DNA of 64,000 nucleotides from assembly GCA_000002445.1 (NCBI GenBank), contig CH464491.1:3168001-3232000 (forward strand), written 5' to 3'. The notes under the pieces were generated by a model. The model saw only the letters and a program-made list of their open reading frames with translations. It ran no database searches and was not told where the DNA came from. Below, in pieces: positions 2 through 16,431 of the stretch. The position numbers were made by a program, and so were the translations under genes. This DNA comes from Trypanosoma brucei (Eukaryota). Position 1 is the stretch's first letter; each line of letters begins with the position of its first letter.

Positions 2-3000
2 AAGGGAGTGATGCTTTCTATTCGCATTCCGGACCACTACCCCTCGGATCCCCCTAACATATTTATTGGCCCGCGCAAGCAGCAGACAGGAGGAATGTCC
101 ACCTTAGCTGTTTTACCGCTTGATACAAAGGAACTTCCAGCCGTGGCAAGACGATCAATACTGGATGCTGCTGTTGAAGCGATTAACGGATTCGTGGGCG
201 AGGGTTGTTTAATTGGGTTGCTTTCTTCAATTTGTGGCGCAATTTCTTCTGTTAGTGGACTGGGAGTAGTAGAACAACTTCCTACTCCCGCACCGTGTGA
301 GAGTAAGGAGGTAAAGGCTGTAATAGCCGCAAAGCGCCAGGCGTTCGCGTCTGCGCTGTCCGCTTCTGAGGATCCGTTGGCGTTACCCCCTGAGGAACCA
401 AGCTCGACGACGTGCTCACTACCAGCGAAGGTAGAGCTTGGTACTGTCGATCACAGCGATGACGAGGTCGGTCAAGTCCGACGGGAATTTCTCCGTAACA
501 ACAAACAGTTGGATGCGAAGCTCAAGGAGGAGTGGCAGGCTCTCAGAGCTAACGGTACCCTGAGAAACTCGCGGGAGCAGCTTCCCGCCTACAATGCACG
601 TGAGGAGCTTCGCCAGGCCGTGGCAAGGCACCGCGTCGTTGTTGTAAGTGGTGAAACGGGTAGCGGTAAGACCACTCAAATACCGCAATATCTGTATGAG
701 TTTATGTGTGAAGATGGGAAGGGGAGCTCTGCCAACATTGTGTGTACGCAACCACGGAGACTTGCGGCAACTTCCGTAGCACTTCGGGTTGCTGGAGAAC
801 GCGACGAAGCCGTAGGCGGTGTGGTTGGTTACACTATCCGTCTGGAAAACTGTGTGTCCAGTCGCACTCAAATTACTTATTGCACCACCGGTGTTGTGCT
901 TCGGCGAATACAGGTGGATAAATTTTTGGGTAGGGTCAGCCACATCGTTGTGGACGAGATTCATGAGCGTGGTGTGGACACCGATGTCCTCCTTATTCTC
1001 CTCCGTGACCTTCTCGAGCGCCGTGATGATTTGACTGTCGTACTCATGAGTGCGACAATGGATTCTGAGTTGTTTGCACGTTACTTTGGTGGGTCTCCTA
1101 TCATTAACATTGCTGGTCGCACATTTCCCGTCCAGGTATTCCATCTAGAAGAGATTATCCCAATGGTAAACTACAGTCTGGATGATGGTTCACCGTATGC
1201 CAAGTGGGAGGTACGAAAGGAAGAGAGGCGACGGAATACGCGGAAGCAAATGTTGGACATTGACATCAATGAGATTGAAGAGGCGCGGGAACTCACCGCA
1301 GGAGTCCATGGACCGTCAACACAACTAAGCGCATCACACAGGACGTTGGATATCCTATCCCGGATGAATCCAGACGTCATCAACTACGAACTGATTGAAT
1401 CCATTGTTGTGTACATCGATACCAAGATGGGTGTGCCAGGCGCCATTCTGATTTTTCTTCCTGGCATGGTGGAGATGACTTCGTGCATGGAGCAACTAAA
1501 GTCTAACCCGAAGCTCCTCAGTAGTTGCCTCATCTACAACCTCCATAGTTCTCTTGGGTCGGCCGAGCAACAGGGCGTATTTCAGCATCCACCCAAAGGC
1601 AAGAGAAAGGTGGTCATCGGAACCAACATCATGGAGACGTCCATCACCATTGATGATGCGGTGTTCGTCATCGATTGCGGGAAGGTGAAGGAGAACCGCT
1701 ATGACGCACGGAGAAGTTTATCACAACTGGTTACTGTGAACACATCCAAAGCTAACTGCCGTCAGCGGCAAGGGCGAGCTGGTCGAGTACGTGAGGGTTT
1801 CTGCTTTCGTTTGTTTACCAGCACCCAGTTCGAGTCACTCGACGACCATCAGCTTTGTGAGATGCATCGTGTTCCCCTCGAGAGTCTTGTTCTTCAAATA
1901 TATTCCCTTAATCTCGGTGATGAAGTAGAGTATCTTCGGAAAGCTCTGTCACCGCCAGATGAGCGGGCTGTGCGAAGCAGCGTCAAAGCCCTAACAACAC
2001 TTGGTGCACTGACTATGGACAAGCGTCTTACATCGCTTGGGCGGCACTTGGCCAACCTCCCGCTGGATGTTCGTATTGGTAAGATGGTCATACACGGTGC
2101 AATTCTTCAGTGTGTGGACCCAGTACTGACGATCGCCGCATGCCTTGCTGTGCGTACCCCATTCCTTTCGGCGATGGACTATCAAGTGGAGGTGGAGGGT
2201 GTGCGGAGAGCGCTCTCTGGGGATTACATGTCAGACCATTTATCTTCGTGGTTTGCTTATTCTAAGTGGATCGCGATGTGGCACAAGGAGGGCCCTGCTG
2301 GAGCGAGTAAGTTGTGTGCAAAGTACTATTTGTCTCTGCCAGCACTGCGGCAAATCCAAGCCACAAAGCAGCAGTATGAGCGATTTCTCTACGAGGCTGG
2401 GCTTATTGAGGAAACACCTGTTCGTATGAAGAACAACCGGTTCCTCTATGACCCAGTTGTCACTCTTGAAGACAGTGTGTACGAGTCGGGTGGACCCCGT
2501 TTCAACACCAACTCTGGTAGTGTGAAGTGCATTCTTTCGTGCATCGTCGCCGGCCTCTATCCGAATGTGGCGTGTGTGAAGACAGTGCGAGGTGGAAAGG
2601 GAGGCAACCGTACTAACATCACGACCCTGGACGGGTCGGAAGTTCTTGTTCACCCCTCCAGCGTTGCTGGAAAGGAAAAGGCGTTCGCCTCTCCACTTCT
2701 TGTTTATGTGGATAAGGTGAAAACTTCAGCCACCTTTCTGCGTGAAGTTTCAATGGTGACGCCGCTTCATGTCGTGTTCTTTGGGAGCGGCCGCCTCGAG
2801 TATCTTCCGAAATATGGGGAACTTGTCGTGGACGAGGCAACTGCTTTCAGATGTCAAAGCGAGGATGCTGTATTGTTACGGCACCTAAAGGATCAGTTGG
2901 ATTCAGCCCTTAGCCAAAAGATCAACGACCCGTCTAAGAGTTGGGAATCTACCAGCAGCGTTGTCGTTCGCGCTATTCTCAGGCTTCTGAAAGGTGACTC

Positions 3001-3277
3001 GAGCACTGTCCGTGGTTTAACAGTTGTCGACAGGCGCCAGCCACGCGCACCGCTGACTGCCCCGCTGCTGCAGGTCGAGTCAAGCGACGACGCACCAAAA
3101 AAGAAGGACGGCAGCGCCGACAAGAGGACATGTTTTGTGTGTGGTGAGGGCGGTCACGTGGTTAATACCTGCCCACATAAAGCAGCAGCAGCGAAGGGAG
3201 GACCCGTGACGCGCTGCTTCATTTGTGGGGAATGGCACCACCCGACAGATTGCGCAGTAACGACCCCCATGCGTTGA
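2..3277 (+). CDS. DEAH-box (DHX57/DHX36-like) ATP-dependent RNA helicase with RWD-like N-terminal region and two C-terminal CCHC zinc knuckles. The 5' end is truncated by the window edge (frame is open to position 2; no credible start, ORF track used GTG at 8)
   Basis: Helicase motifs are read directly in the translation: GETGSGKTTQIP (motif I), TQPRRLAA (Ia), DEIHER (II, DEAH variant), SAT (III), TNIMETSITIDD (V), QRQGRAGR (VI). N-terminal YPSDPP element is typical of RWD/UBC-like folds. C-terminal CFVCGEGGHVVNTC (CX2CX4HX4C) and CFICGEWHHPTDC knuckles. Stop at 3275-3277. Confidence 0.85.
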   Translation, partial: KGVMLSIRIPDHYPSDPPNIFIGPRKQQTGGMSTLAVLPLDTKELPAVARRSILDAAVEAINGFVGEGCLIGLLSSICGAISSVSGLGVVEQLPTPAPCESKEVKAVIAAKRQAFASALSASEDPLALPPEEPSSTTCSLPAKVELGTVDHSDDEVGQVRREFLRNNKQLDAKLKEEWQALRANGTLRNSREQLPAYNAREELRQAVARHRVVVVSGETGSGKTTQIPQYLYEFMCEDGKGSSANIVCTQPRRLAATSVALRVAGERDEAVGGVVGYTIRLENCVSSRTQITYCTTGVVLRRIQVDKFLGRVSHIVVDEIHERGVDTDVLLILLRDLLERRDDLTVVLMSATMDSELFARYFGGSPIINIAGRTFPVQVFHLEEIIPMVNYSLDDGSPYAKWEVRKEERRRNTRKQMLDIDINEIEEARELTAGVHGPSTQLSASHRTLDILSRMNPDVINYELIESIVVYIDTKMGVPGAILIFLPGMVEMTSCMEQLKSNPKLLSSCLIYNLHSSLGSAEQQGVFQHPPKGKRKVVIGTNIMETSITIDDAVFVIDCGKVKENRYDARRSLSQLVTVNTSKANCRQRQGRAGRVREGFCFRLFTSTQFESLDDHQLCEMHRVPLESLVLQIYSLNLGDEVEYLRKALSPPDERAVRSSVKALTTLGALTMDKRLTSLGRHLANLPLDVRIGKMVIHGAILQCVDPVLTIAACLAVRTPFLSAMDYQVEVEGVRRALSGDYMSDHLSSWFAYSKWIAMWHKEGPAGASKLCAKYYLSLPALRQIQATKQQYERFLYEAGLIEETPVRMKNNRFLYDPVVTLEDSVYESGGPRFNTNSGSVKCILSCIVAGLYPNVACVKTVRGGKGGNRTNITTLDGSEVLVHPSSVAGKEKAFASPLLVYVDKVKTSATFLREVSMVTPLHVVFFGSGRLEYLPKYGELVVDEATAFRCQSEDAVLLRHLKDQLDSALSQKINDPSKSWESTSSVVVRAILRLLKGDSSTVRGLTVVDRRQPRAPLTAPLLQVESSDDAPKKKDGSADKRTCFVCGEGGHVVNTCPHKAAAAKGGPVTRCFICGEWHHPTDCAVTTPMR

Positions 3278-4351: not shown

Positions 4352-7006
4352 AGGGAGGACTATCTGAAGTAGAAGGTCCCCTCCGTGTTATTACAATCGG
4401 GAATATCTCCACTTTCTTTCTTTCCTCTTTTTTCTTGCTTATTTTACTTCTTTTACCTTCCACCCATCTTTCCATTCACACCATTTTTTTTTTCCGCGCA
4501 TTTTTCTTTCTTCCTTCTCCTTGATTTTTTTTTTGTTGCTCTCCGTCTCTCAGGCAGAGTCTGGTGTAATCGGACCAATTTACGGTTAAAATCAGCCGAT
4601 GGGCGAGATGAAACACTTATGAACGACGTATGTTTATGTTCCTATATGAATTAATATATGCACATTTGCATTATTAAATTTCTTCTCTCCCGCACGCAGG
4701 CACGCACACACGTTGGGATGTGCATGTAGTTGTGAGGATGGTTCTTCCAAACCTTTAGGAACTGAGGGAGGGGGGAAATGATGCATTTTCTAAATATAAT
4801 TATGGGGATACATCCATACGATGTGACACGAGTGAAGAAGCAAAAGAGAGAGAGGGGGGAGGAAGGAAAAGAAAAAGAGAGAAAAGGAAACAAGAGGACA
4901 TACTCACACACATGCAAAACAACAACAACCACATTAAAAAAAAAAAGAAACGGTCATTCCGCCGTGTTTTTTTTTCTTTTCGCTTTTGTTGTGCGGCTGT
5001 TTCCAACAACTCCCTTCTGCTCCTCCTCCTCCTCCTCTAATTCCCTTTCTTTCCTTCCCCTCTTTCTTTTCCCTCTACTCCTCTTTCTTCTTGTTTTTGT
5101 TTCTATTTTGTTTCCATTTTTTTTTTCCTTTTTATGACTCATGCATATGTGTGATGAAAAAGAGGGGAAAGATATTAAATGATATATAATATATAATACT
5201 TTTGACGGAAGAGAAAAAGAAAGAACAACAACCTGTTGCACAAAGTGGCAACTTCTATTAATAAATAACAGCAAACCATTTAAGGAAGAGAGATGAAGTA
5301 AAAGCAAAGTAATAACAGTATAATAATATTGCTTTGAAACAAAGGAAGAAGGAAAGGAAGCAGAAACAACAAAGAGGGATTTGAGAATTGAGAAATACAG
5401 GTAACACTACTAGTGTTACTATTTTGTGATTACATGGCATATTTATTATATCTTTGCACATATCAGCAGCAGGCCACCTGCCTGTCTTTTTTTTTCTTTT
5501 TCTTTTTTCTTTTTTTTTGCTGCTGTCGTTGCTCTTTTTTTTTTCCCCCACTCCTCTTTTCTTTTTGTTTATATTATAATTTATTTATTTTTATACGCTC
5601 CGTTTCCTCTTTTTTATTGTCTGTTTTTTAAGAAAAAAAAATATAATGGAGTTAAATAAAGAAAGAGGAATGAAAGTGTTTGAGAAAATAAGGAACACGC
5701 GGATTTGGAGGAAATGAATGGATGAATGGAAAAAGGAGGAAAAGGAAAAAAAGGCAGGAAAAAACTGTCGCGTGAGTGTTAATTTTTTTTATTAAAAAAA
5801 AAAAGCAATCAAATAAATTAACAAAACTAAAAAAATTGTGTAATTGAGAGAAAAAGTATAAACAGATCCGTAATACCTGAAACTATCAATGGCGATAACC
5901 AAAAAACAACTTTTAAAAGGTCTCTCTTTTTCTTTTCTTCTTCTTCTTTTTTCTTTCTTTTTTTTTAAAAAAAAGGAGAGGAAAATAAGTGAAGTTAAAG
6001 GAGAGGAAAATAAGGAGAAGGAGAAGGAGGAGAGGAGGATGGGAGAAGGAGGAGGAAAAAAAAAAAAAAGAGACAGGAAGACGGGTTAAACAGTGGAAGA
6101 ATGGAAAAGGTTGTTTTTTTTTTTTTACTTTTTGCATAAATCGTGCCGATAATTAATTAATTTTTTTTTTCGTTTTAAAAAGAAAAAAAAATCAAACGCG
6201 GTGAATAAATGGGGATAGACGCAGAAAAAGTAAAAGTAAAAGATATAAATGACGTGTGTGCGTGTGTGTATGTGTGTATGAGGAAAGTAACAAGAAGTGG
6301 CAGGCAAAATTGTAAACAAATAAATAATTATAAATAAACGGAAAGAAGAAAGATAATAAAGAGGGAAGTGGAAAGCTGTCAAATGCACTCCCTTTTTTTA
6401 TTTTTATTTTTCTTTTTCCTGTTTTGTTTTACATGTATGCGTGGAATGCTTACTTCGCGCGGATAACTCTTTTTATCCTATCTCTCTCTCTTTTTTCTCC
6501 GTTTTTTTTTTACCTCCTTTTTGATATTATCATTATTATTAATACTATGATGATTGTCGTGACTATAATGATTATTATTTTTATGATTTAATAGCCAGCG
6601 GTCCTCACACTAAAATATGCGAAAAAAAAAAGCGTTAATAAGTAAGGAGGTAAATAAAAATTGAAAAAAAAGAAACAGACGAAAATCATAAAATGAAGGT
6701 AACAAAAAAAAAATGTACGAGGGAATGCCAACAACATCAGCACACACGCGCAAACAAAAAAAAACAGTTGGGGATATGTTTGTTTGTTTGTGTATGTGTT
6801 TGTGTGTGGGGGGGGAGGGAAGGGGAGAAGCAAATAGCGATCCCATTGCAAGTATATGACATCACCCATTTTCCTATAATAATAATAATTATTATTATTT
6901 GTATTTGTGTTTGTGTTTGTGCTTTTGTTCATTCCCTCGTTTTCCTACTTGCGTTTGTTCCTGTTCTTGTTCTTGCTTTTTTTTTCTTTTCTCATCTTTT
7001 CTACCT

Positions 7007-7042
7007 CCTCCTCCTCCTCCTCATTATTATTATTATTATTAC
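7007..7042. repeat. (CTC)6 immediately followed by (ATT)6 trinucleotide repeats
   Basis: Direct read: ctcctcctcctcctcctc attattattattattatt. Confidence 0.85.
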
Positions 7043-8424
7043 CGAATTCTCTCTTCATTTTGTATGCGTGTATGCGTATGTATGCATGCGCCTCTATTTT
7101 AATGTTTGTGTTGAATTCAAATGAATTCACCCATGCCGTATTTGTGCCCCACCCCTTTTTATGCCGTGTGCTTGTATGAGTTCGTATAATTTTTTTTGTT
7201 TACATCCATATAAATATAAATTATATTTATATTTATACGCTTGCATTATTCCCAAAAGAAAAAAAAATGCCGTATTTATTTATGATATTCGTTTAACAAT
7301 GTGCTTGATTGTTTCAATTTCTTTCTCTTACTTTCCTCTGTGTGTGTGTGTTTGTGTTTCTTCAACTTTCTGCTAGTGGCTTCGCTCCTTTATTTTCTTC
7401 CTTTTATTTTTCTTCTTTTTTTTTGTTTTGTTTTCACTTCCACTTTTTATTTCATTGAATGTGTCCCTTTTTTTGGCAGGTAACATATGGGAATATTTAT
7501 TGGGAAATAAGAGAAGAACAAAAAAGTGGTGTAGAAAACATTATTGAAACCAAAAGGAGAAATTTAAAGTAACGAAAAAGAAGGAACGTGGAAAGCGAGT
7601 TAAAGGTATCACTTTTTAAAAATTTTTTTTTAAAAAAAGAAGAGGGAAAATGAAACAAAATATAAAATAAATCAGGTAAACAACAACAACAACATCATCA
7701 TCAAAAAAAAAGCAACATTAAACAAAGAGGGAGATAAAGAAGGGGGAGAAAAGAGGAGGTTCAATGAAGAATTATGAGCATTTTTTCCTTTTTTTAAAAA
7801 AAAGACCTAAAATCTTCTTTAAAATTTTACTTTCATTCATTTTTTTTTACTTTTTTCTTTTCTAAATAGCAGTGTGGAAAAATCAGTGCACATATTTTTC
7901 GAATTGTTTCAAAGTGAAGACAGCAAAAAAAGAGAGAAAGGAAATATTCTAAAAAGAAGAGATAATAAGAAAAAAATGAAAAAAGGAAGGATATAGTGCC
8001 TGATGTGCTCACCGAAATCGACCAAGTAATAATAATAATAATGAAAATAATCCGAATATGAAGATGACATATTAAATATTAAATATTAAAAAAAAATATA
8101 TATATATATCTTTACAGTGACTATTCCTCTTTTCCCCCTCCCTTCTTACTACTTCGAAACAACAACAACAACAACAAAGAAAAACACTCTGTGGAAACAG
8201 GAAGAAGAAAAAAAGAAACACACGTACTGCAACACATGGAAATGTTCAGAAGAACAAATCATATAAACATATATTTATTTATTTAAAATATTGTTAGTAA
8301 CATGAGCGTAAACACACAAGCGAATGGTTAAAAGGCAATGATGATAACACAGTAGGAAATGAAGCAAATGTGTAGGCGTACCCATGCTATAAAGAGGGAA
8401 AGTAAAAGTGATGATTTTGCTCTT

Positions 8425-8470
8425 TTGTCTTTTGTCTTTTGTCTTTTTTGTTTTCTTTTTGTCTTTTTTG
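8425..8470. repeat. Imperfect (TGTCTTTT)n tandem repeat
   Basis: Direct read: ttgtcttttgtcttttgtcttttttgttttctttttgtcttttttgttttg. Confidence 0.8.
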
Positions 8471-8771
8471 TTTTGTGAGTGTGTGTGTTGTTAAACAAAT
8501 TATAAAATAAAGCAGATGCGGCGAAAAAAAAAATGGGAAGAATGAAAGAAAGGAATATATATATATATATATATATTTATGTTTATTTATGTTTATGCTC
8601 ATACATCTGAGAACGGGTGGAAAAGGGATTACAAATGGTGGCATCGAGTATTTTTCAAAGCAGGAGGCAAATTGCGGGAAGAAGAAGGGATATGAGGGGG
8701 TGGGTTTGCGGAGAAATTTGTGTGTATATATGTGCTAAAAAAGACAAAAACAAGAACAAAAAACTGCAAAT

Positions 8772-8774
<3 letters not shown>

Positions 8775-8818
<44 letters not shown>
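8775..8818. repeat. (TA)n microsatellite, about 22 units, followed by (TTTA)n at 8819-8836
   Basis: Direct read: atatatat... from 8775 to 8818, then atttatttatttat. Confidence 0.9.
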
Positions 8819-8822
<4 letters not shown>

Positions 8823-9255
8823 TTATTTATTTATATCTATGTTTCAATATTTTCGCATATTTATATGTGACCTTGATCTCTCTGAGTTTATTCTGTGTAT
8901 ACAATTAGCATATGTATATTATATGTTAGTTTGCTGGCTTAACTCGCTTCGTTTATATTTGTAACTTTCCTCTTTTGTTTGTTTGTTTGTTGCGGAAGGG
9001 AATTTGACTGGACGTGTCCGTCTTTTTGTTTTTGTTTGCAACTGTTCTTTTTTGTGTGTTTCTTATTTAATTACTTTTTGACTGTGTATTTGTGTGGATA
9101 TTTATACGCAAATATCTATATCTATATATATGTATTTATATACATATGAACTTATATGAGTATAAATATAAATTTGAATGAGAATGAATAGACACGAAAA
9201 GAGCCATTATGTTGAAGTAAGTAAGCCGAACCCAGATGAAATTATATAGGGTGAG

Positions 9256-9308
9256 AAGGGTTGGAAATAATAATAATAATAATAATAATATATATATATA
9301 TATATATA
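9256..9308. repeat. (AAT)8 followed by (TA)n, about 12 units
   Basis: Direct read: aataataataataataataata then tatatatatatatatatatataat. Confidence 0.85.
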
Positions 9309-12300
9309 ATCATGGATGTGAGCTCAGTGTTGTTGTTGTTATAATGATTATTTTCTTTTGCCCTCATGCAAATGCTGACGGACTCGAACACGTGGGGACC
9401 ACCACATCGTCTTACTTTCCCTTCCTCTTTTTTTTTTGTTTTCTCCTTCTTATATGTTTTTTTGTTTTAATTCTAATTGGCTCGTTGCGTTTTGTTTGGT
9501 TGAGCTATTTTCGACACGAACCCGCTATGGTAGTTTTTTTTTGTTACTCTGTTTCTGCCTACTTGGTTACGTTAACTTTTTTCTTTTTTCTTTTTTCTTT
9601 TTTTCCATTTGTTTCTTCGCATGGAGGTGAGTATTCATGAAAAGTGATGGAGAGTAATTTAGAGGAAGCGAAGGGGAAGAAAAGAGCGGAGGGGGAAAAA
9701 AAAAAGGATTGTTTTGGGAGAGAAAGGGGAGAAATAAAAAAAGTTGTTGCTGTTGTTATTGTTATTAAAAAAAAAAACAAAAACAAGAGAGGTTTTAATT
9801 AGAGCGAGGAAAGAGAAAGGTGAAGGAAAGAAGGAAAGGGGGGAGGGAAAAAGTTTGTATTGGCGGTGGGATTTGAGGTGCAACGGATCCGAAATCACGG
9901 AACAATTACATTTAATCTCATTTCTCTGCGGTCATGTTGAGCCGTAAGGAACCCTCGCATACGGGAACCTTCACCATTTTCTTTTTATATTTTTCTCTTT
10001 CTTTTTTTTCTTTTTTCTTTTTTTTTTAAAAAAACATGGAGATGACATTGGATAACAAAACAAATACGCCCATATTTAAATATTTACATATTTATGCAAC
10101 TGTTAATTCATTAAAAGGTGGAGGGGAGGGAATGAACAGAACCAACAATGATGGGGGAAGGGGTTTAACAATGAATAAGTGAAACAGTGGATCAAGTGAA
10201 AATTATTGTATTTATGTTTTATATTAATATAAATACAAATTTAAACGAATTTGAATAAATAACTGAATTTAAGCAATATAATAAATCTATATACGGACAT
10301 GTAGAGTTGCACTTTTTTTTTTTAATTTGAAAGGTTATGAAATTAAAAACAGTTGCGACTGCTTCAGCAAATGAGGAATGTTTCCGTTTCTAAGTGTCAA
10401 TGTCCGTGTGAGTGGCTGAGAGGACGAAAAATATGAATAATATGACAAAAATAGAAGAAGCACAATCGAAGAGACAAACAGAAAAAAAGAAGCATAACGA
10501 AGAATATATAAGCCACGTAAAATATTTAAATGAAATAAAACAAAATGAGGAAGCACTATATTGGACACACAATGAGAAACAGCGGAAGTAATGACAAAAT
10601 TCACTCTTCCCCTCCTTTTATTATTATTATTGTTATTGTTATTATCTTAGTTTCCTCCCTTTTTTTTTTAACATTTGTGACGTGGCGTTTCTTTATTTAC
10701 GTTTTTGGTGGGTTCGTTACCACCGCTCTTCTCGGTGCATGTGTATATGTATATGCTTGCTCACTTTTTTCCCTTGTTTTTTAATATTAATCATATTATT
10801 ATTATTACAATCATATCCCTTGGTTCCATCTACAACCTTTCGTGGGGCAGATATTTATGTCCCCTATATTCCTTTCTCTTTTAAAAAAAAATCTTTATTT
10901 ATTTGATCTGGTTCTTTTTTCCTCTTTATATATATATATATATATTAACGAAACTACTTTTGTTTTTTTAAATTTTTTTACTATTACGGCACAAGCGAGT
11001 GAATCCTCACCCAAAACGGCGGGGAAGGAGCATCAACTTGTGAGGTTCCTCATGAAAAATATAAATATTGCATGCGGATACCAAACTTGCCGATGCTTAC
11101 ACGCATTAAAAAAGAAGGTTTCGTTTTGTATTTTTGAAAAAAAAAACAAAGAAGGAAAAGGAAAGATACATATATATATAAATATGAATGCAAAGAGAAA
11201 ATTAATAGACAAGGAGAGGGGCGTAACTCGAGCTTCCTTCAAGTGTTTTTCCTTTTCATTTTATCAATATTATTTTATTTATCTTTTCTCGGTGTTGTTC
11301 TTCTTTTATCTTTTCTTCTATCCTTTTCACGTGACACTATTTCCTTTGGTTGAAACTAACGAATAATATACGCCTGTGCATAAGCGATGGTGAGTGACTA
11401 AATGAATAAATAAATAAATGCTCTTTTGAATAAATGGAGGGAATATTTAAGACTCAGAAACGTAAGTTACGAGGAGGAAGGAGGAAAAAGGGACGAGAGG
11501 TGTCTTTCCTTCTTTATTTTTGCCTTTTATTGTGTGCACTTTTGCTACTCCTCGTTGCCGCATTTCCGTTCTTCCGTAACGGGGGGGGGGAAAAAAAAAG
11601 GAATTGTGCGTTTGGTAAAGAAATGAAGGTATAGAAGCGGCTTCCGCTTGTCCCCGCATGTCCTCGTGCATGTTTAAAGCCGCGCTCTTCCCTCCATTCG
11701 TGCTGATGAGTATTTGTTCATAAATATGAGAGGAAATATATATATATATATATTTATAGGTATATATTTACTTGACTTCTCTTTTCCTCTTTTTTTAATT
11801 ATTGTAAACTTTTATATTTATGTACATGCACATTAAGAGCGCACCCTAATGTCGTATTGCGGTGATGATTCACCGTTGTTACCCATCATCATGGCCAAAG
11901 TAATAATTATATATATATATATTATTGCATTCTCATTATGGTGCCCTTTTTCTTCCCTTTCCCTTTCTACTTACCTTCTTTGTTATCATAATTATTAAAA
12001 CTGTACGTACTTTACCTCAATTAAGCAATAATGGTAACCGAAAGTAGAAGAAGAAAAGGAAAAAAAAGGATGCGGAAGGATAATTACGCACAACACTTTA
12101 ATTATTATTATTATTATTACATTATTATTACTATTATTATTGTTTGTTCCTTTGTGTACTTCCTTGCCACTTATACGCGTACCTTTCATTGCTTTGGCAC
12201 TGATCATATGAATTAAATTTAAGGATTTTAATTATGGTGATGATTGTTGTTATTAAAAAAAAACAATAATAACTATTATTTTATATTGTGCCTTTACTCG

Positions 12301-13764
12301 TTGCAACCATCATACCCTCGTGGATTGCATTGTTTCGTTGGCGTGGAGGTAACAAACCACATAAACGAGCCAAATGACTGCACATATAGCGGAAGGAAAT
12401 AAAACAAAGGAGAAAGTAAAGCAAATTAAAAAAAAGAGGGAGCGAGAAGGATTTAAAAGAAACATTTTTTTTTCTTAAAGATGAGTCGACTTCTACCATT
12501 CGTGTTTATCGATCCATATTTGTATATGTTTATTTATTTATTTGTATATACGAAAAGAAGATAAGGAATGGGGGAAAAGAGGCATGAAGAAGTGAGAAGA
12601 GGATGAGGAAGAGAAGGAAATAAAAGAAAAGAAAAGAAAAAAAAAGCGATAGAAAACAGAAAGAAAAAGGAAAAAGAAAAAAAAATGAAGAAAAGAGAAC
12701 AAGGTGCTGGTGTGCCGCGTACTTGAAATTCACACTGTTCCCGTTCTTTCACATCGAAGTTGGGAAACCAATAAAACAAGAGGTATAAATCATATCATAA
12801 TTATTACTGTTTGGAGATGACTTTCTTTTCTTTTCTTTTTGTTTTTCTCTTTTTTTTTTTTTTACCCCTCTCCCATTCAGCTTTTCTTTTGTGTACCTTT
12901 TCTTTACAGCACTCTGTGTTTCAACCGACCGGATAATGGAGACCAGCAAAAACAACCACAAAATGCGAGTAAAACCAGAGCAGCAAGAAAAGAAGCGAAA
13001 AAGACAGCGCCCATTTATGGGTTTATTTACTTTAAAATTAAAATATATATATATATATATATTATACTCACATATTTGTGTGGTGACGAAGGTAAGGAAA
13101 GGGGAAATTATTGCAAGTTGTTTATATGAAACTGGCAAACAAAAACTCTTTTTCTATCTTTTTTTTTTAAAAAAAAGAAAAAGAGAAGAGGGGAGAGGAG
13201 AGGAGAGGAGGATTTCAAAAAAAAAAAAGAAGCAAGTGCGTGTGCGCACGGATGGCTGGACGGACTTTAACACATGGTGCAACACGATTTGATTTTCAGT
13301 TTGCTTTTCATTTTCTTCGATCCGACAGATAACTGCTCCGTGGGAATGACTTGCTCTCTTTTTTTTTTTAATTATTATTATAATTATTATGATTTCGTTT
13401 CGTAAATGATTTCCACTTTCCCAGTCCCTGCTGCACTTCATATCCGCGCAACATTTTCTTTGTTTTGTTTTGCTTATTCTTACCCTTCTTGTTATCTTTG
13501 TTTTTTTTAAAATTATTGCTTATTTATATTAGTTTCTATAGGGAATAGTCATATAATTTAGTTGTTTGAGACTGTGAGTCACAAGGCAGCGCCGCTTGAA
13601 CTTTCCAGCATATTGAGATGAGGAACCTGCAGACCCACACATGAAAGGGGTAATATGATTCTTTTTTTAAAAAAAAATATATAAATATATTCTGCTTTTC
13701 ATCCAAGAATAATAATAATGAAAAAGAAAGGTGCAATCCTTTTTGTTTTCAAGGAAAGGTCAGT

Positions 13765-13837
13765 CAATTTTTCCTCTCTTTCTTTTTCGGTTTCTTCGTG
13801 TGCCTGTTTGTTTTTTATATTGTTGTTTTCACACCAG
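13765..13837 (+). promoter_or_regulatory. Polypyrimidine tract plus AG upstream of the EF-hand gene (probable SL acceptor region)
   Basis: ttcctctctttctttttcggtttcttcgtgtgcctgtttgttttttatattgttgttttcacaccag lies about 200 nt upstream of ATG 14045. Confidence 0.4.
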
Positions 13838-14044
13838 TTAACAAGGGCTTTGTGCTCCGCAAAGTTAGCATCATAAAGTAAGGCGATAGAATACAAAAGA
13901 AAAAAAAGCTCCATCAAGAAAAGAGCGGGAGGAAAAAAAAAGAAAAATTATACACCGAAGATATATAGAAAGGGGCCATAAGCCTCGCATATAGCAACAA
14001 ACAAGGAGGACAGACAAAAGGAAAAAAAAAGGGAGGACCAGGAT

Positions 14045-15808
14045 ATGGCGTTTCTCGTACAAGTAGCAGCGGATATATTCAATAATAAAGTGAACTTTGA
14101 GCTTAGCTTCCCGTCCAGACCCAGCATATCGGAACTGACGCGTTCGGCGGAAACTGCTTTCTCAAATGAAATTTCTCTTCGCCGACCGGACAATGTGCCA
14201 TCGCACAAATTTCATTCATCGAAGATCAAAATGTACGATGAGGAGCTCAACAAATGGGTGGATCTAATAAGGGAGGACCAGTTAACGGATTATTGTCAGC
14301 TTTATGTTTTCCAACCTCCAAATGAATGGCACAAGGAAAGCCAAAAGGAAATCCCCCCTGCAATGAAGCCACCGAGTTCCGGCCAACGACACTCCGCAGG
14401 TGGTTCCTTTTCACAGGGCTCACGTGTCACTCCTAATGGAAGCCTTTCCATGCAGGGGGCTCTCGCACCGTACAACGGGTCTCGCTCACCCGTTAGCCAC
14501 CGCAGTGAGTCGCAACAGGCTCGTCACGCTTCGTTCCACGGGAGTACCTCAAATGCGCTCGTGCCGCGTGCCCAGACAGATGTGTCGCAAGAAGAAAAAC
14601 TGCGTGTGCTATTCGCGGAACTCGATGTAAAGGGTAACCGTGTGCTCGACGTTGAGGACTTCCGACACGGTTTCACTGTGTTTAATCTCAACTTCAGCCC
14701 AGCTACGGTGGACGATCTCTTTGAAAAGGGTGACAGCAACCGGGACGGGCGGATTACCTTTTCAGAATTTGAGCGGTTCGGACGGCTCTATCCAATCATG
14801 ACGGATTGCCTCTATTTCCGTTCCAGGGCTTTTTGGGAAGAAGAACAAATCAGGCGCTCTATTCAAAATGAGCGACAGGCAGTGAGACAAGCGGAGCAAG
14901 CGGTGGAGCAGGCCCGACGAGCCCTTGAGGAGGCAGAAAATGAGACAGATGCCGCTAAGGATGCCGTCGCAACTGCGGATGCGGATCTCAAGGATCGAAC
15001 GGACCGTCTGCGGGACCTCACGAGGGACATGGACAACGCAAAGCGCGAGAAGGAGCGGGCCATCCGCGAGAAGAAGGATCGCGAGAAGGAACTCTTCGAG
15101 ATTCGTGAGCGTGAAAAGGAGCTTCGGAAAGACGCACAAGAGGTGGCTCGTGAGGCTGAGAAGCAGGACCGACGGGCGTTTTCTCTCGCTGGGGAAGCGA
15201 GTGCTGCCGATGACAAGGTTCGTGCCTTGGAGAAGGCCCTTGACGAGGCTCGTCGTGCCGCTGAGCGGGCGCACAACGCCGCAGATCAGGCTGCCAGAGA
15301 CGCTGATATCGTGAAACTCCGCATGCAAGATGCTACACGAGATGCCGAGGAGGTGGCACGGGAGGTTCCCCGGGCGGAGGACGCGGTGCGGGCCGCAGAG
15401 CACAACGTATCAGCAGCAGATCAAGGGGCTCGGGAACTGGAAGGAATGGGCCGTGTGCTTTCGCGGGAGATAGAAGAGGCTGGGCAGCGACGGGATCAGA
15501 GCGAAAAGGCAGTTGAGGAGGCGAGAGGTATGATGCATGTGAAAGAGCGTCAGTTGGAGGAAGCAAAACAGCACGTTTCGGAGAGGGAACACGCCGTAAG
15601 GCTTAAGGAAATCGAACTGGCTGATCAGCTGAAGCAGCGTGAACTCGTGTCACAGCACGAGAGGACACTTATAGAGCAGGAGCTTCGGCTACGCGAACAA
15701 AGAGACAGTTTAGAGGAGCGGGAGACGAAATTGATGTCAGAAGCCAGCAGCTTCCTGGGCAATCTCCGTACGCAGTTACACGGTGGGAGGTCCTATCCGC
15801 GAGATTAA
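14045..15808 (+). CDS. EF-hand calcium-binding plus long coiled-coil protein (587 aa) with a compact N-terminal domain
   Basis: Two EF-hand-like loops (DVKGNRVLDVEDF; DSNRDGRITFSEFERF), then about 300 aa of heptad E/R/K/A-rich coiled coil (REKERAIREKKDREKELFEIREREKELRKDAQE...). Intact ORF with coding-like composition. Confidence 0.7.
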   Translation: MAFLVQVAADIFNNKVNFELSFPSRPSISELTRSAETAFSNEISLRRPDNVPSHKFHSSKIKMYDEELNKWVDLIREDQLTDYCQLYVFQPPNEWHKESQKEIPPAMKPPSSGQRHSAGGSFSQGSRVTPNGSLSMQGALAPYNGSRSPVSHRSESQQARHASFHGSTSNALVPRAQTDVSQEEKLRVLFAELDVKGNRVLDVEDFRHGFTVFNLNFSPATVDDLFEKGDSNRDGRITFSEFERFGRLYPIMTDCLYFRSRAFWEEEQIRRSIQNERQAVRQAEQAVEQARRALEEAENETDAAKDAVATADADLKDRTDRLRDLTRDMDNAKREKERAIREKKDREKELFEIREREKELRKDAQEVAREAEKQDRRAFSLAGEASAADDKVRALEKALDEARRAAERAHNAADQAARDADIVKLRMQDATRDAEEVAREVPRAEDAVRAAEHNVSAADQGARELEGMGRVLSREIEEAGQRRDQSEKAVEEARGMMHVKERQLEEAKQHVSEREHAVRLKEIELADQLKQRELVSQHERTLIEQELRLREQRDSLEERETKLMSEASSFLGNLRTQLHGGRSYPRD

Positions 15809-16379
15809 TGCTTTATATGGGAGCAAATTTACCAGTGCGACGCACGCAACGTCACGGAGTGGTTGAATCAGTTGTGTGCAGGCGGGAAAATGAAGGGAGA
15901 TCATCGAAAGAAGTAATGAAAAGAATCAAGCGCTCCTCCTTTTTTGTTTAAAGTTTTATGTTCATTTTTTACTTATTGGAGGCGGACGTTTTTACCGTGT
16001 AAGGATGTTCAGGGCGCGGGGAGTTTCATAGAATATTTCTCTTTTGTTCATTTACCCCTTTTGCTCTGACTCATTGTGACCTTCTACCAACTTCCCCGAT
16101 TACTGCCGTAAACACGGCCATTAATTTTGTTGTTGTTATTGTTTTGTGCGTGTGTGTGTTTGTGCTAGTGAACCAAACGTTCGCAACATTTTATTTCCGT
16201 CCCTAGCAACCACCCAGCGGTGTGTTTGTGTGTGGCTGTGTGGGGTGTGACACTATTAGAGGTCTATAGAGAAATGGAGCAAAACAAGGAAAAAGGTTCG
16301 CGAGGAAGAGAGAAGGGGAAAAGAAGAGGTATTGGTCACGCAGGGTATCATTTGTTTTTCTTTGTGATCTCGTGGAATG

Positions 16380-16381
<2 letters not shown>

Positions 16382-16426
<45 letters not shown>
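16382..16426. repeat. (TA)n microsatellite, about 22 units
   Basis: Direct read at 16382-16426. Confidence 0.9.

Positions 16427-16431
<5 letters not shown>

What the first reader, a model, noticed from the sequence alone, without database searches (positions are those of the whole stretch)
4352..14044. About 9.7 kb gene-free, low-complexity desert inside a same-strand polycistronic unit
Spacers between the other 20 genes in this window are roughly 0.2-2.5 kb. This interval is 4-5x longer, has no credible ORF on either strand, and is saturated with microsatellites, homopolymers and A/T-rich runs. It sits immediately 3' of a single-RRM RNA-binding protein gene. In African trypanosomes, regulatory RNA-binding proteins are known to carry exceptionally long, instability-conferring 3' UTRs (for example the multi-kb RBP10 3' UTR). 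One hypothesis is therefore a very long regulatory 3' UTR. Alternatives are an unannotated long ncRNA or snoRNA cluster, an internal transcription initiation/termination zone (H2A.Z, H3.V or base J marked), or an assembly-collapsed repeat. Any of these would be worth knowing.
Basis: partly seen in the sequence, partly recalled or inferred. Interest (0 to 1): 0.6.

Follow-up and report, generated by a model that had tools for sequence, protein, structure and literature searches.

The report
Long non-coding spacer after trypanosome RBP9
The 9.7 kb "desert" is the real, non-coding stretch between the Trypanosoma brucei RBP9 and BILBO1 genes. It is transcribed and is most likely a very long, variably processed 3' regulatory region of the bloodstream-specific RBP9 mRNA. 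That is a known kind of feature in this parasite, here enlarged by the loss of a neighbouring gene.

Summary
Window 4352-14044 (9,693 nt, 32% GC) is 4-5 times longer than any other spacer in the window, 3-5 times richer in low-complexity sequence, and has no credible ORF, tRNA, Rfam RNA or long repeat.

The upstream gene is T. brucei RBP9 (Tb927.11.12120) and the downstream gene is BILBO1. The reference annotation places two non-conserved "hypothetical" ORFs inside the interval (Tb927.11.12130 and 12140). They look spurious: junk translations, non-coding composition, and one is frameshifted in T. b. equiperdum.

An independent assembly has the same interval (9,602 nt), so it is not an assembly artefact.

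A disproportionately long spacer after this RRM gene is conserved. It is 8.2 kb in T. vivax, 11 kb plus at least 10 kb in Leishmania, and 2 kb in a compact kinetoplastid. There is no sequence conservation. Leishmaniinae and T. theileri, T. melophagium and T. rangeli carry a third RRM gene in the middle; T. brucei and T. vivax lack it, and T. congolense appears to.

Published read counts show the interval is transcribed, higher in bloodstream forms, and partly decays like RBP9 mRNA. More than half of the signal behaves like precursor, and internal spliced-leader sites exist.

Best reading: a long, heterogeneously processed RBP9 3' region. This is a new member of a known kind, of modest interest.

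The parts
8..3277 (+). C-terminal part of the DEAH/RHA helicase (Tb927.11.12110; old ID Tb11.01.3930). Context gene upstream of RBP9.
   Evidence: Pfam DEAD, Helicase_C, HA2 and OB_NTP_bind. The full 1,299 aa gene is present in T. b. equiperdum L001. The RWD-DEAH helicase Tb11.01.3930 is described in PMC4987287.
3698..4351 (+). RBP9 coding sequence (Tb927.11.12120), 217 aa, single RRM.
   Evidence: RRM_1 E 2.7e-18. One amino-acid difference from the T. b. equiperdum protein. The CDS length of 654 nt equals the published RBP9 CDS length. The SwaI/BstEII pair used in the RBP5 3' UTR lies after the other, 130 aa RRM gene upstream of the helicase. Old ID Tb11.01.3940 = RBP9.
4352..14044 (+). The RBP9-BILBO1 non-coding interval: 9,693 nt, 32% GC, rich in low-complexity sequence.
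   Evidence: length, composition; no Rfam family, no tRNA; only low-complexity repeats; collinear with the 9,602 nt T. b. equiperdum copy.
4352..13700 (+). Predicted maximal RBP9 3' UTR (about 9.3 kb) if no internal processing site is used. The distal poly(A) zone is inferred at about 13,620-13,700, roughly 100-150 nt upstream of the BILBO1 polypyrimidine tract.
   Evidence: Inference from the rule that trypanosome poly(A) sites are set by the downstream trans-splicing signal (PMC9380746 abstract; PMC6597758), together with the sequence. Not measured.
5921..5966 (+). 46 nt polypyrimidine tract with an AG 9 nt downstream, followed by an 85 nt polypurine run. Candidate internal trans-splice/polyadenylation signal. 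The tract and the polypurine run can fold back as a low-complexity hairpin.
   Evidence: The sub-threshold miRNA-like Rfam hits here are low-complexity hairpins.
8420..8469 (+). 50 nt (TTTTGTC)n polypyrimidine tract with an AG 10 nt downstream. Candidate internal processing signal.
8555..8576 (+). (AT)11 repeat. This and the other five (AT) repeats of 9 units or more listed below make six in the interval.
   Evidence: (AU) repeats of 9 units or more affected expression in the RBP10 3' UTR (PMC8982893).
8775..8818 (+). (AT)22 repeat, the longest in the interval.
   Evidence: Length-polymorphic relative to T. b. equiperdum (44 nt indel at 8784).
9288..9308 (+). (AT)10 repeat preceded by (AAT)8.
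9990..10027 (+). 38 nt U-rich polypyrimidine tract with an AG 14 nt downstream. A candidate for the 'upstream' spliced-leader site reported for Tb927.11.12130.
   Evidence: PMC4453557 reports SL tags at upstream sites that encompass short ORFs before Tb927.11.12130. Assigning them to this particular tract is inference.
10857..11366 (+). Annotated ORF Tb927.11.12130 ('hypothetical protein', 510 nt). Judged non-coding.
   Evidence: Located by exact length and order. GC3 0.31, codon LLR -0.50. No Pfam hit. Frameshifted with stops in T. b. equiperdum.
10927..10945 (+). (TA)9 repeat inside the spurious ORF.
11736..11753 (+). (AT)9 repeat.
12821..12874 (+). 54 nt polypyrimidine tract with an AG 6 nt downstream, about 60 nt upstream of the Tb927.11.12140 ATG. 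Strong candidate internal trans-splice acceptor.
   Evidence: Its use is not measured.
12936..13292 (+). Annotated ORF Tb927.11.12140 ('hypothetical protein', 357 nt). Judged non-coding.
   Evidence: GC3 0.39, LLR -0.34. Residues about 6-35 differ through a compensated frameshift in T. b. equiperdum.
13043..13062 (+). (AT)10 repeat.
13768..13837 (+). Polypyrimidine-rich stretch ending in CACCAG. Predicted BILBO1 trans-splice acceptor, giving a 5' UTR of about 207 nt.
   Evidence: Read from the sequence. Inference, not mapped.
14045..15808 (+). BILBO1 (Tb927.11.12150), 587 aa.
   Evidence: Pfam BILBO1_N plus EF-hand. Orthologues. Tb927.11.12150 occurs in a flagellar-pocket-collar paper (PMC5683654); equating that ID with BILBO1 rests on my own knowledge.

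Best explanation
The interval is the non-coding region between RBP9 (Tb927.11.12120) and BILBO1 (Tb927.11.12150) on T. brucei chromosome 11. It lies inside a same-strand RNA polymerase II polycistron.

It is transcribed with its neighbours. It most likely serves as an extended, heterogeneously processed 3' regulatory region of the RBP9 mRNA.

Proposed mechanism:
- When internal polypyrimidine-AG signals are ignored, cleavage and polyadenylation are dictated by the BILBO1 splice acceptor (about 13,837). This gives an RBP9 mRNA with a 3' UTR of about 9.3 kb.
- When internal signals are used, the products are RBP9 mRNAs with shorter 3' UTRs plus spliced-leader-capped, polyadenylated non-coding RNAs. 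These are what the reference annotation calls Tb927.11.12130 and 12140.
- The long AU-rich, repeat-rich sequence offers many low-specificity protein-binding sites. That could keep the mRNA rare and allow bloodstream-specific stability and translation.

Origin: a long spacer after this RRM gene family is ancestral. T. brucei and T. vivax lack, and T. congolense appears to lack, the third RRM paralogue that lies mid-interval in Leishmaniinae, T. theileri, T. melophagium and T. rangeli. Loss in the salivarian lineage would have merged two long spacers into one.

Shown: gene identities, non-coding nature, transcription, conserved long spacer, absence of the paralogue.
Inferred: physical continuity with the RBP9 mRNA, the processing sites, and any regulatory role.
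For: **Identity and context**
-.

**Non-coding**
-.

**Not an artefact**
- T. b. equiperdum has a collinear 9,602 nt copy with 1.75% substitutions and 67 small indels, the largest 68 nt.

**Conserved long spacer relative to local norms**

| Lineage | Spacer(s) after the RRM gene(s) | Other local spacers |
|---|---|---|
| T. vivax | 8,244 nt | 0.3-1.3 kb |
| T. rangeli | 2,961 + 4,045 nt | 0.2-1.0 kb |
| T. theileri | 2,422 + 2,685 nt | 0.24-0.65 kb |
| L. orientalis | 11,212 nt, then at least 10 kb | 0.7-1.9 kb (from; also L. martiniquensis) |
| L. martiniquensis | 23.4 kb holding one gene | 0.7-2.2 kb |
| unnamed compact kinetoplastid | 1,994 nt | 0.1-0.3 kb |

**Transcription and co-behaviour with RBP9** (published counts, my ratios)
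- Mugo & Clayton 2017, Table S5. In RPM, RBP9 / 12130 / 12140 are 50-58 / 16-18 / 12-15 in bloodstream forms and 8-11 / 6-9 / 5-7 in procyclics. Per-nt density over the interval is therefore about 0.40-0.47 of the CDS in bloodstream forms and about 1.0-1.2 in procyclics, and it is about 2.3 times higher in bloodstream forms.
- Fadda 2014, bloodstream ribo-minus series. Reads left at 120 min relative to time 0 are 16% for RBP9, 17% for 12130 and 11% for 12140, against 1.1% for BILBO1 and 1.7% for the helicase.
- RBP9 mRNA half-life is 50 min, at 1.6 copies per bloodstream cell. Ribosomes per mRNA are 16.9 in bloodstream forms and 1.1 in procyclics.

**Internal processing exists and is protein-controlled**
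- SL tags upstream of Tb927.11.12130 rise on RRM1 depletion.
- DRBD18 suppresses internal polypyrimidine tracts in long 3' UTRs.
- The interval has 31 sense-strand polypyrimidine tracts of 18 nt or more.

**Precedent**
- RBP10 has a 7.3 kb 3' UTR, DRBD12 an 8.4 kb mRNA, and RNA-binding-protein mRNAs often have multi-kb UTRs.
- Six (AU) repeats of 9 units or more lie in the interval.

**Suggestive selection signal**
- The RBP10 destruction motif UAUUUUUU is absent from the sense strand of all 9.7 kb. None of 11 AUUUUUU sites is preceded by U, against 7 of 15 in the other spacers. The dinucleotide-shuffle expectation is 4.1.
Against: - No long-read, northern, SL-site or poly(A)-site data could be read here, so continuity of CDS and interval in one RNA is not shown. 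No published RBP9 3' UTR length was found.
- In bloodstream forms the interval has only 20-47% of the CDS read density.
- With actinomycin D alone for 5 min, the interval ORFs fall to about 0.2-0.45 of the untreated level after library-size correction. RBP9, BILBO1 and the helicase stay at 0.76 or higher. Most of the steady-state signal may therefore be precursor or rapidly removed by-product. That is plausible for an mRNA present at 1.6 copies per cell.
- Internal A-tracts (74 overlapping A8 matches) could capture precursor in the poly(A)+ libraries.
- Polypyrimidine tracts are as frequent on the antisense strand (37) as on the sense strand (31), so composition gives no strand-specific signature.
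- No sequence conservation outside the T. brucei clade. Within the clade the interval evolves 4-10 times faster than the flanking CDS, so any constraint is on length or composition, not on sequence.
- The UAUUUUUU depletion is a single post hoc test with p about 0.01-0.02.
Confidence: 0.5

Rival explanations
1. The RBP9 mRNA has an ordinary or moderately long 3' UTR (up to about 2-3 kb). The rest of the interval is excised intergenic RNA. It is transcribed as precursor, cut at internal polypyrimidine-AG signals, and gives short-lived by-products and/or independent SL-capped, polyadenylated long non-coding RNAs. Any function these have is separate from RBP9.
For: - About 55-75% of the interval signal is lost within 5 min of actinomycin D when splicing is active.
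- Density is only 0.2-0.47 of the CDS in bloodstream forms.
- SL tags lie upstream of Tb927.11.12130.
- There are many strong internal polypyrimidine-AG signals.
- T. brucei has about 1,428 mostly intergenic, low-GC, SL- and poly(A)-bearing lncRNAs (PMC9200285).
Against: - The stable fraction over the interval ORFs decays like RBP9 and unlike the neighbouring genes (11-17% against 1-2% left at 120 min).
- The interval signal is about 2.3 times higher in bloodstream forms. It rises when RBP10 is expressed in procyclics, as RBP9 does.
- In procyclics the density equals that of the CDS.
- UAUUUUUU is absent across all 9.7 kb.
Confidence: 0.3
2. The interval is a head-to-tail boundary between two same-strand polycistrons. 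It would hold a Pol II termination zone (H3.V, H4.V, base J) and/or an internal initiation zone (H2A.Z, H4K10ac).
For: Such internal sites exist in T. brucei and can be several kb wide (established knowledge). The interval has some GT-rich tracts at 6254-6280, 6898-6929 and 7339-7359. Nothing here tests chromatin.
Against: - There is no tRNA or other Pol III gene, which often mark such sites.
- There is no strand switch, and cumulative GC skew rises smoothly.
- RNA is detected across the interval at 6.5-9 kb from RBP9 with RBP9-like behaviour.
- The long spacer tracks the RRM genes. In T. theileri, T. rangeli and Leishmania, both RRM paralogues have their own long downstream spacer. That fits a gene-linked UTR-type feature better than one conserved boundary.
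Confidence: 0.1
3. The interval is largely neutral debris. It would be the decayed remains of the lost third RRM gene and its flanks, enlarged by microsatellite slippage, tolerated rather than used.
For: - The third RRM gene is absent only from salivarian trypanosomes among the lineages examined.
- The interval diverges 4-10 times faster than the flanking CDS, with 67 indels mostly at repeats.
- There is no sequence conservation with T. vivax.
Against: - No relic of the gene is detectable (tblastn, and a profile HMM on six frames with best E 2.9).
- Long spacers flank these genes even where the gene is intact, and in a compact genome. So length is not explained by gene decay alone.
- T. vivax keeps 8.2 kb after long divergence.
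Confidence: 0.08
4. The interval is an assembly artefact (a collapsed or mis-joined repeat) or a hidden structured-RNA (snoRNA) cluster.
For: Only the abundance of simple repeats.
Against: - An independent T. b. equiperdum chromosome assembly is collinear over the whole interval, 9,602 against 9,693 nt.
- There is no tandem array with a long period and no long dispersed repeat.
- No Rfam family reaches its gathering score. At E up to 1 there are only low-complexity hairpins, far below threshold.
Confidence: 0.02

Closest known systems
RBP10 (Tb927.8.2780) 3' UTR of T. brucei
   Same: It lies downstream of a single-RRM, bloodstream-specific regulator. It is multi-kb, AU-rich and low-complexity, with (AU)n, poly(A) and polypyrimidine tracts. 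Its internal polypyrimidine tracts can cause truncated isoforms.
   Different: For RBP10 the 7.3 kb UTR is shown by experiment, and at least six regulatory fragments are mapped. For RBP9 nothing comparable was found. The interval is longer (up to about 9.3 kb). Published counts suggest that only a minority of RBP9 transcripts could carry all of it.
Other long-3'-UTR mRNAs for regulators: DRBD12 (8.4 kb mRNA) and ZC3H20/21/22 (3' UTRs over 4 kb)
   Same: They belong to the same class. Clayton 2019 notes that mRNAs for RNA-binding proteins and kinases often have 3' UTRs several kb long. DRBD18 and RRM1 influence their processing.
   Different: Those procyclic-specific mRNAs carry several RBP10 motifs. 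The RBP9 interval has none, which fits the opposite stage specificity.
Intergenic SL-capped, polyadenylated lncRNAs of T. brucei (for example grumpy, upstream of RBP7)
   Same: They are low-GC intergenic transcripts next to an RNA-binding-protein gene, made by the normal trans-splicing and polyadenylation signals. SL tags are reported inside this interval.
   Different: grumpy is a defined RNA of about 0.4 kb with a demonstrated phenotype and an embedded snoRNA. No discrete RNA or snoRNA is defined here.
The RBP9-orthologue / third-RRM-gene / BILBO1 arrangement in Leishmania, T. rangeli and T. theileri
   Same: Synteny is identical from PEX11 to BILBO1. The RRM genes have disproportionately long downstream spacers.
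   Different: Those species keep a third RRM gene of about 280-308 aa ('RBP5-like') in the middle. T. brucei and T. vivax lack it without a trace. T. congolense probably lacks it too, but that rests only on adjacent gene IDs.

Membership tests
Very long regulatory 3' UTR of a trypanosome RNA-binding-protein mRNA (RBP10 type) | Lies directly 3' of the regulator's CDS on the same strand, with no intervening real gene before the next trans-splice acceptor | tested here: met
   RBP9 stop at 4351, BILBO1 ATG at 14045, all on the + strand. The two annotated ORFs are judged non-coding.
Very long regulatory 3' UTR of a trypanosome RNA-binding-protein mRNA (RBP10 type) | One mature, SL-capped and polyadenylated RNA that contains both the CDS and the whole region | not testable with these tools
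   Only published per-ORF read counts were available. These show co-variation and RBP9-like decay of a stable fraction, but also lower density and a large short-lived fraction.
Very long regulatory 3' UTR of a trypanosome RNA-binding-protein mRNA (RBP10 type) | AU-rich, low-complexity composition with (AU)n, poly(A) and poly(U/C) tracts | tested here: met
   32% GC, six (AT) repeats of 9 units or more, 74 A8 and 75 U8 overlapping matches, 31 sense-strand polypyrimidine tracts.
Very long regulatory 3' UTR of a trypanosome RNA-binding-protein mRNA (RBP10 type) | Fragments confer stage-specific expression on a reporter | not testable with these tools
   This needs experiments. No such study of RBP9 was found in the searched library.
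Independent intergenic lncRNA (SL plus poly(A)) | Own trans-splice acceptor and poly(A) site, longer than 200 nt, low coding potential | tested here: inconclusive
   Low coding potential is met. Candidate polypyrimidine-AG signals are present. The literature reports SL tags upstream of Tb927.11.12130. Transcript ends could not be seen.
snoRNA or other structured ncRNA cluster | Match to a known RNA family, or tandemly repeated units carrying C/D or H/ACA features | tested here: not met
   No Rfam hit at gathering score. At E up to 1 there are only low-complexity hairpins, at 21-34 bits against cut-offs of 63-150. No long-period tandem repeats.
Polycistron boundary (internal Pol II start or stop zone) | Histone-variant or base-J marks; often a tRNA gene or a strand switch | not testable with these tools
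   Chromatin data are unavailable. The sequence-level correlates are absent: no tRNA and no strand switch.
Assembly-collapsed repeat | Length or structure not reproduced in an independent assembly; long identical repeat units | tested here: not met
   The T. b. equiperdum chromosome CM010682.1 is collinear (9,602 nt) and the largest indel is 68 nt.
Pseudogene relic of the third RRM paralogue | Detectable residual similarity to the RRM-X protein family in any frame | tested here: not met
   tblastn at E < 0.1 finds only RBP9 in the window. A profile HMM against the six frames of the T. brucei, T. b. equiperdum and T. vivax spacers gives a best E of 2.9.

The most novel reading that the evidence does not exclude
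The interval could be a single 3' UTR of about 9.3 kb, which would be the longest so far described in T. brucei. It would have been created when the salivarian ancestor lost an intervening RRM paralogue, so that RBP9 'captured' the regulatory downstream region of its lost neighbour. Choice between internal and distal processing sites, under RRM1- or DRBD18-type control, would then switch RBP9 between a translated bloodstream isoform and a silent one.
Probability: 0.2. Interest if true: 0.5.

Novelty: new member of a known kind. Interest (0 to 1): 0.33.

Why it matters
RBP9 is one of the most strongly bloodstream-enriched regulators in T. brucei. Its control is mainly translational: 16.9 ribosomes per mRNA in bloodstream forms against 1.1 in procyclics, and a 159-240-fold difference in ribosome footprints. 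Yet no cis-element study of it was found.

If the interval is its 3' regulatory region, it offers a second, even longer test case beside RBP10 for two questions. Why do trypanosome regulators carry multi-kb UTRs? How does suppression of internal splice signals set the isoform?

The comparative result turns 'is the length functional?' into a testable question. From a compact kinetoplastid to Leishmania, an RRM gene at this locus is followed by a downstream spacer several-fold longer than local norms (two of the three RRM paralogues where three exist), with no sequence conservation. T. brucei and T. vivax lack the third paralogue.

On the practical side, Tb927.11.12130 and Tb927.11.12140 should probably not be treated as protein-coding genes in genome-wide analyses.

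Tried and rejected
- **First identification as RBP5.** T. cruzi and T. theileri orthologues carry that name. This was rejected. The SwaI/BstEII pair described for the Tb927.11.12100 3' UTR is absent after this gene. It is present after the 130 aa RRM gene upstream of the helicase. Old and new gene IDs and CDS lengths then fix this gene as RBP9.
- **Published RBP9 3' UTR or mRNA length.** Not found in main texts. Several supplements are not held. The Fadda 'mRNA length' sheet is truncated before the RBP9 row.
- **Sequence conservation of the interval.** I compared it with T. vivax, T. theileri, T. cruzi and Leishmania by blastn (word size 7) and tblastx. Only low-complexity matches came back.
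- **T. congolense locus.** It could not be fetched. Only the adjacent gene IDs 12740 and 12750 are known.
- **T. cruzi locus.** It has runs of N inside the spacer, so it was not used.
- **RBP10 as a relocated copy of the lost paralogue.** Rejected, because RBP10 has its own orthologues in Leishmania and relatives.
- **Salivarian copy of the lost paralogue elsewhere.** A profile search of 1.84 billion representatives was swamped by multi-RRM proteins. The single-domain hits are unnamed environmental or Logan sequences. So a copy elsewhere in salivarian genomes is not excluded.
- **Strand asymmetry of polypyrimidine tracts.** None was found.
- **Known motifs.** The PUF9 motif UUGUAC is absent (0 against 2.1 expected), and AUUUA, UGUA and AAUAAA are not enriched. 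UAUUUAU is 9-fold over-represented (28 against 3.1) but was not followed up. UAUAUAUA and the A8/U8 excess reflect the repeats.

Full report
**1. What is at the coordinates**

All large ORFs in the window are on the + strand. The ORF at 3698-4351 encodes a 217 aa single-RRM protein (RRM_1, E 2.7e-18). The ORF at 14045-15808 encodes a 587 aa protein with BILBO1_N and EF-hand domains.

The stretch between them is 9,693 nt at 32.3% GC. The other spacers in the window are 200-2,436 nt at 34.5-47.5% GC.

The interval is 3-5 times richer in low-complexity sequence than the other spacers pooled:
- homopolymers of 8 nt or more: 6.0% vs 1.7%
- perfect microsatellites: 6.4% vs 1.3%
- polypyrimidine or polypurine runs of 15 nt or more: 14.5% vs 5.3%

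It is far above shuffled expectation on all three. TRF finds about 100 short arrays and none with a long period. The repeat finder returns only low-complexity families. There is no tRNA and no Rfam family at gathering score. At E up to 1 the only hits are polypyrimidine/polypurine hairpins that resemble plant miRNA precursors, far below threshold.

'Saturated' is somewhat overstated.

**2. Which genes these are**

The closest protein is from T. brucei equiperdum, with one amino-acid difference, so the window is from the T. brucei clade. Orthologues in other species are named 'RBP5', but that name is misleading here.

The T. b. equiperdum locus has this gene order: a 130 aa RRM gene, a 1,299 aa RWD-DEAH helicase, this 217 aa RRM gene, 9.6 kb with no called gene, then BILBO1.

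The SwaI/BstEII pair that Kramer and colleagues used within the first about 300 nt of the Tb927.11.12100 (RBP5) 3' UTR (PMC4705827) is absent after our gene. It is present, 243 nt apart, just after the 130 aa gene.

With the old IDs the order is:

| Gene | ID |
|---|---|
| RBP5 | Tb11.01.3915 |
| helicase | Tb11.01.3930 |
| RBP9 | Tb11.01.3940 |

The published CDS length is 654 nt. Our gene is therefore RBP9, Tb927.11.12120. BILBO1 is Tb927.11.12150 (the ID appears; the name assignment is my own knowledge).

What the literature says about RBP9:
- It has a single RRM.
- Its mRNA is 7-10 times more abundant in bloodstream than in procyclic forms (PMC8312216, PMC5413900).
- It is present at 1.6 copies per bloodstream cell, with a 50 min half-life.
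- It carries 16.9 ribosomes per mRNA in bloodstream forms against 1.1 in procyclics (Fadda 2014 comparison sheet).
- The bloodstream/procyclic ratio of ribosome footprints is 159-240 (Clayton 2019 Table S1).

**3. The interval is annotated, but not credibly coding**

Published tables based on TREU927 list two ORFs between RBP9 and BILBO1: Tb927.11.12130 ('hypothetical protein', 510 nt) and Tb927.11.12140 ('hypothetical protein', 357 nt). ATG ORFs of exactly these lengths, in that order, lie at 10857-11366 and 12936-13292.

The evidence against their being genes:
- The translations are strings such as YIYIYI, FFFYLFFY and KKRKR.
- GC3 is 0.31 and 0.39, against 0.48-0.57 for real genes.
- The codon log-likelihood is negative.
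- There is no Pfam match.
- In T. b. equiperdum, 12130 is frameshifted into stops. 12140 differs over about 30 residues through a compensated frameshift.

**4. Not an artefact**

The T. b. equiperdum chromosome is collinear across the whole interval (9,602 nt). It shows 1.75% substitutions and 67 indel events, mostly at repeats, the largest 68 nt. In the flanking CDS the substitution rate is 0.15-0.5%.

**5. Comparative anatomy**

Synteny PEX11 / unnamed gene / PIG-L / HhH-GPD / small RRM (RBP5) / DEAH helicase / RBP9 orthologue / ... / BILBO1 holds in T. vivax, T. theileri, T. cruzi, T. rangeli and Leishmania.

| Species | RBP9-orthologue stop to BILBO1 ATG |
|---|---|
| T. brucei (window) | 9,693 nt |
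| T. b. equiperdum | 9,602 nt |
| T. vivax | 8,244 nt |
| T. rangeli | 7,846 nt |
| T. theileri | 6,019 nt |
| L. martiniquensis | 23,434 nt |

The T. cruzi contig has runs of N in the spacer and was set aside.

In T. theileri the interval contains a 303 aa gene that proved to be a third RRM paralogue. Its family (about 280-308 aa, named 'RBP5-like') is present in T. melophagium, T. rangeli, T. conorhini, many Leishmania species, Porcisia, Novymonas and Lotmaria.

Its position, where it could be read:
- T. rangeli: 2,961 nt after the RBP9 orthologue and 4,045 nt before BILBO1.
- L. orientalis: 11,212 nt after the RBP9 orthologue, followed by at least 10 kb without a called gene.

The paralogue is absent from the T. 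brucei, T. b. equiperdum and T. vivax intervals. tblastn finds nothing, and a profile HMM on six frames gives a best E of 2.9. In T. congolense the RBP9 and BILBO1 orthologues have adjacent gene IDs. By parsimony, salivarian trypanosomes lost this gene. Their single spacer then corresponds to spacer + gene + spacer elsewhere.

The gene is not RBP10 relocated, because RBP10 has its own orthologues in Leishmania (PMC5568443). A copy elsewhere in salivarian genomes could not be excluded.

A distant, compact kinetoplastid from a Logan assembly has a single RRM gene after the helicase, followed by a 1,994 nt spacer before BILBO1. Its other spacers are 100-330 nt.

In every lineage examined, then, the RRM gene or genes between the helicase and BILBO1 carry a downstream spacer several-fold longer than local norms (the RBP5-to-helicase spacer is 0.6-1.8 kb). 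Yet the sequence itself is not alignable beyond the T. brucei clade.

**6. Is it transcribed, and with what?**

No read-level data are available here. Two published tables give counts for the two spurious ORFs, and these serve as probes at +6.5 kb and +8.6 kb from the RBP9 stop.

*Mugo & Clayton 2017, Table S5, RPM:*

| Sample | RBP9 | 12130 | 12140 |
|---|---|---|---|
| Bloodstream | 50-58 | 16-18 | 12-15 |
| Procyclic | 8-11 | 6-9 | 5-7 |
| Procyclic expressing RBP10 | 19-35 | 6-11 | 7-9 |

Per nucleotide, the interval is at about 0.40-0.47 of the RBP9 CDS in bloodstream forms and about 1.0-1.2 in procyclics.

*Fadda et al. 2014, bloodstream ribo-minus series, raw counts:*

| Time point | RBP9 | 12130 | 12140 | BILBO1 | helicase |
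|---|---|---|---|---|---|
| 0 min | 1089 | 197 | 119 | 4629 | 6713 |
| 120 min after sinefungin + actinomycin D | 177 | 33 | 13 | 51 | 117 |
| % left | 16 | 17 | 11 | 1.1 | 1.7 |

The interval probes thus decay like the unusually stable RBP9 mRNA and unlike either neighbour.

With actinomycin D alone for 5 min the picture is different:
- 12130 falls from 217 to 70 and 39.
- 12140 falls from 127 to 45 and 43.
- RBP9 goes from 801 to 475 and 752.
- BILBO1 goes from 3666 to 2810 and 2864.

After correcting for library size, 55-75% of the interval signal is lost when splicing is active. That is how precursor or excised by-product behaves.

In procyclic poly(A)+ libraries, RBP9 gives 175 and 277 reads and 12130 gives 96 and 138. 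Internal A-tracts could contribute to that capture.

Finally, Naguleswaran et al. (PMC4453557) report that spliced-leader tags at sites upstream of Tb927.11.12130 increase on RRM1 depletion. Trans-splice acceptors inside the interval are therefore used.

Taken together:
- The interval is transcribed.
- Part of its RNA is stable, with RBP9-like kinetics and stage bias.
- Part is short-lived.
- Internal processing occurs.

**7. Sequence signals**

The sense strand has 31 polypyrimidine tracts of 18 nt or more. Several are long and followed closely by AG: 5921-5966, 8420-8469, 9990-10027 and 12821-12874. The antisense strand has as many (37), so composition alone shows no strand bias.

The polypyrimidine-rich stretch 13768-13837, ending in CACCAG, is the likely BILBO1 acceptor. 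In trypanosomes the poly(A) site of the upstream mRNA is set by the downstream splice signal. An RBP9 mRNA that ignores the internal signals would therefore end near 13.6-13.7 kb, giving a 3' UTR of about 9.3 kb (inference).

Six (AU) repeats of 9 units or more lie in the interval. Such repeats mattered in the RBP10 3' UTR (PMC8982893).

The verified RBP10 destruction motif UAUUUUUU is absent from the sense strand of the entire interval. There are 11 AUUUUUU sites and none is preceded by U. In the other spacers, which total 17.6 kb, 7 of 15 are. The dinucleotide-shuffle expectation is 4.1 ± 2.0. My hand calculation gives Fisher p of about 0.01. This fits an RNA that must survive in RBP10-expressing bloodstream forms. 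It is a single post hoc test.

**8. Interpretation**

The best-supported reading (confidence about 0.5) is a long, heterogeneously processed 3' regulatory region of RBP9. It would work in the way documented for RBP10, DRBD12 and ZC3H20-22. A distal isoform would be set by the BILBO1 acceptor. Shorter isoforms and SL-capped non-coding RNAs would arise when internal signals are used. Nuclear proteins such as RRM1 or DRBD18 would influence the choice.

The rivals:
- Main rival (about 0.3): RBP9 has a much shorter UTR, and the remainder is excised RNA or independent lncRNAs.
- Internal polycistron boundary (about 0.1): cannot be tested without chromatin data. It is not favoured, because the long spacers track the RRM genes across species.
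- Pure debris from the lost gene (about 0.08).
- Artefact or snoRNA cluster (about 0.02). The artefact and snoRNA readings were tested and not met; for debris only the gene-relic test was run, and it was negative.

**9. Novelty and value**

Multi-kb 3' UTRs on trypanosome regulator mRNAs are established knowledge. The region is annotated and visible to anyone browsing the genome. This is therefore a new member of a known kind.

What seems not to be in the searched literature:
- any analysis of the RBP9 downstream region;
- the point that Tb927.11.12130 and 12140 are almost certainly not genes;
- the comparative result that a long downstream spacer is an ancient, length-conserved but sequence-free property of this RRM gene family;
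- the finding that T. brucei and T. vivax lack the middle paralogue found in Leishmaniinae and in T. theileri, T. melophagium and T. rangeli.

Interest is modest (0.33). It would rise if long reads show a single 9 kb UTR with regulated isoform choice.

Noticed in passing
window 16776-17378 (+): A conserved gene of about 190-200 aa lies just downstream of BILBO1. tblastn to the genes in the same position in T. theileri, T. rangeli and L. martiniquensis gives E 1e-41 to 1e-70, and GC3 is coding-like at 0.56. The apparent 2.4 kb spacer 15809-18244 is therefore two spacers of about 0.9 kb.
   Followed up: yes
L004 13092-14003; L010 10001-10840; L009 10001-10900: A third RRM paralogue ('RBP5-like', 279-303 aa at these three loci, 279-308 aa across the family) lies between the RBP9 orthologue and BILBO1 in T. 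theileri, T. rangeli and Leishmania. T. melophagium, Porcisia and Novymonas also encode it. It shares an N-terminal MTL(N/S)(F/L) start and a C-terminal YMV-type motif with related unnamed kinetoplastid proteins. It is missing from the T. brucei and T. vivax intervals.
   Followed up: partly
window 4352-14044, sense strand: The RBP10 recognition motif UAUUUUUU is completely absent, although the interval has 75 overlapping U8 matches and 11 AUUUUUU sites. The other spacers of the window (17.6 kb) contain 7 copies.
   Followed up: partly
window 20740-24006 (+): The kinesin ORF (923 aa) ends in TGA at 23509-23511. One codon later, in the same frame, a 163 aa ATG ORF follows (23515-24006). It has no Pfam hit and non-coding composition (LLR -0.13). 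It is probably a chance ORF in the 3' UTR rather than a readthrough extension.
   Followed up: partly
L011 (Logan SRR29674549 contig 322), 7041-10000: An unnamed kinetoplastid with a very compact genome (spacers 100-330 nt) keeps the PEX11-to-BILBO1 synteny. It has only one RRM gene after the helicase, no small RRM gene before it, and a 2 kb spacer before BILBO1.
   Followed up: partly
L005 (T. cruzi MKQG01002538.1) 4657-5470, 11411-13549, 16249-20741: The fetched T. cruzi locus has runs of N, one of them inside the RBP9-BILBO1 spacer. Its 3.6 kb spacer, and the presence or absence of the third RRM gene, cannot be judged.
   Followed up: no
window 16382-16426 and 63538-63597: Other long (AT)n repeats, of 22 and 30 units, lie in ordinary-length spacers elsewhere in the window. 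Long AU repeats are therefore not unique to the RBP9 interval.
   Followed up: no
window 5945-6007, 10005-10067, 13147-13209, 5607-5669: A recurring arrangement: a U-rich tract runs directly into an A-run and then a purine-rich stretch (repeat family D8). It can fold into long low-complexity hairpins. Its significance is unknown.
   Followed up: no
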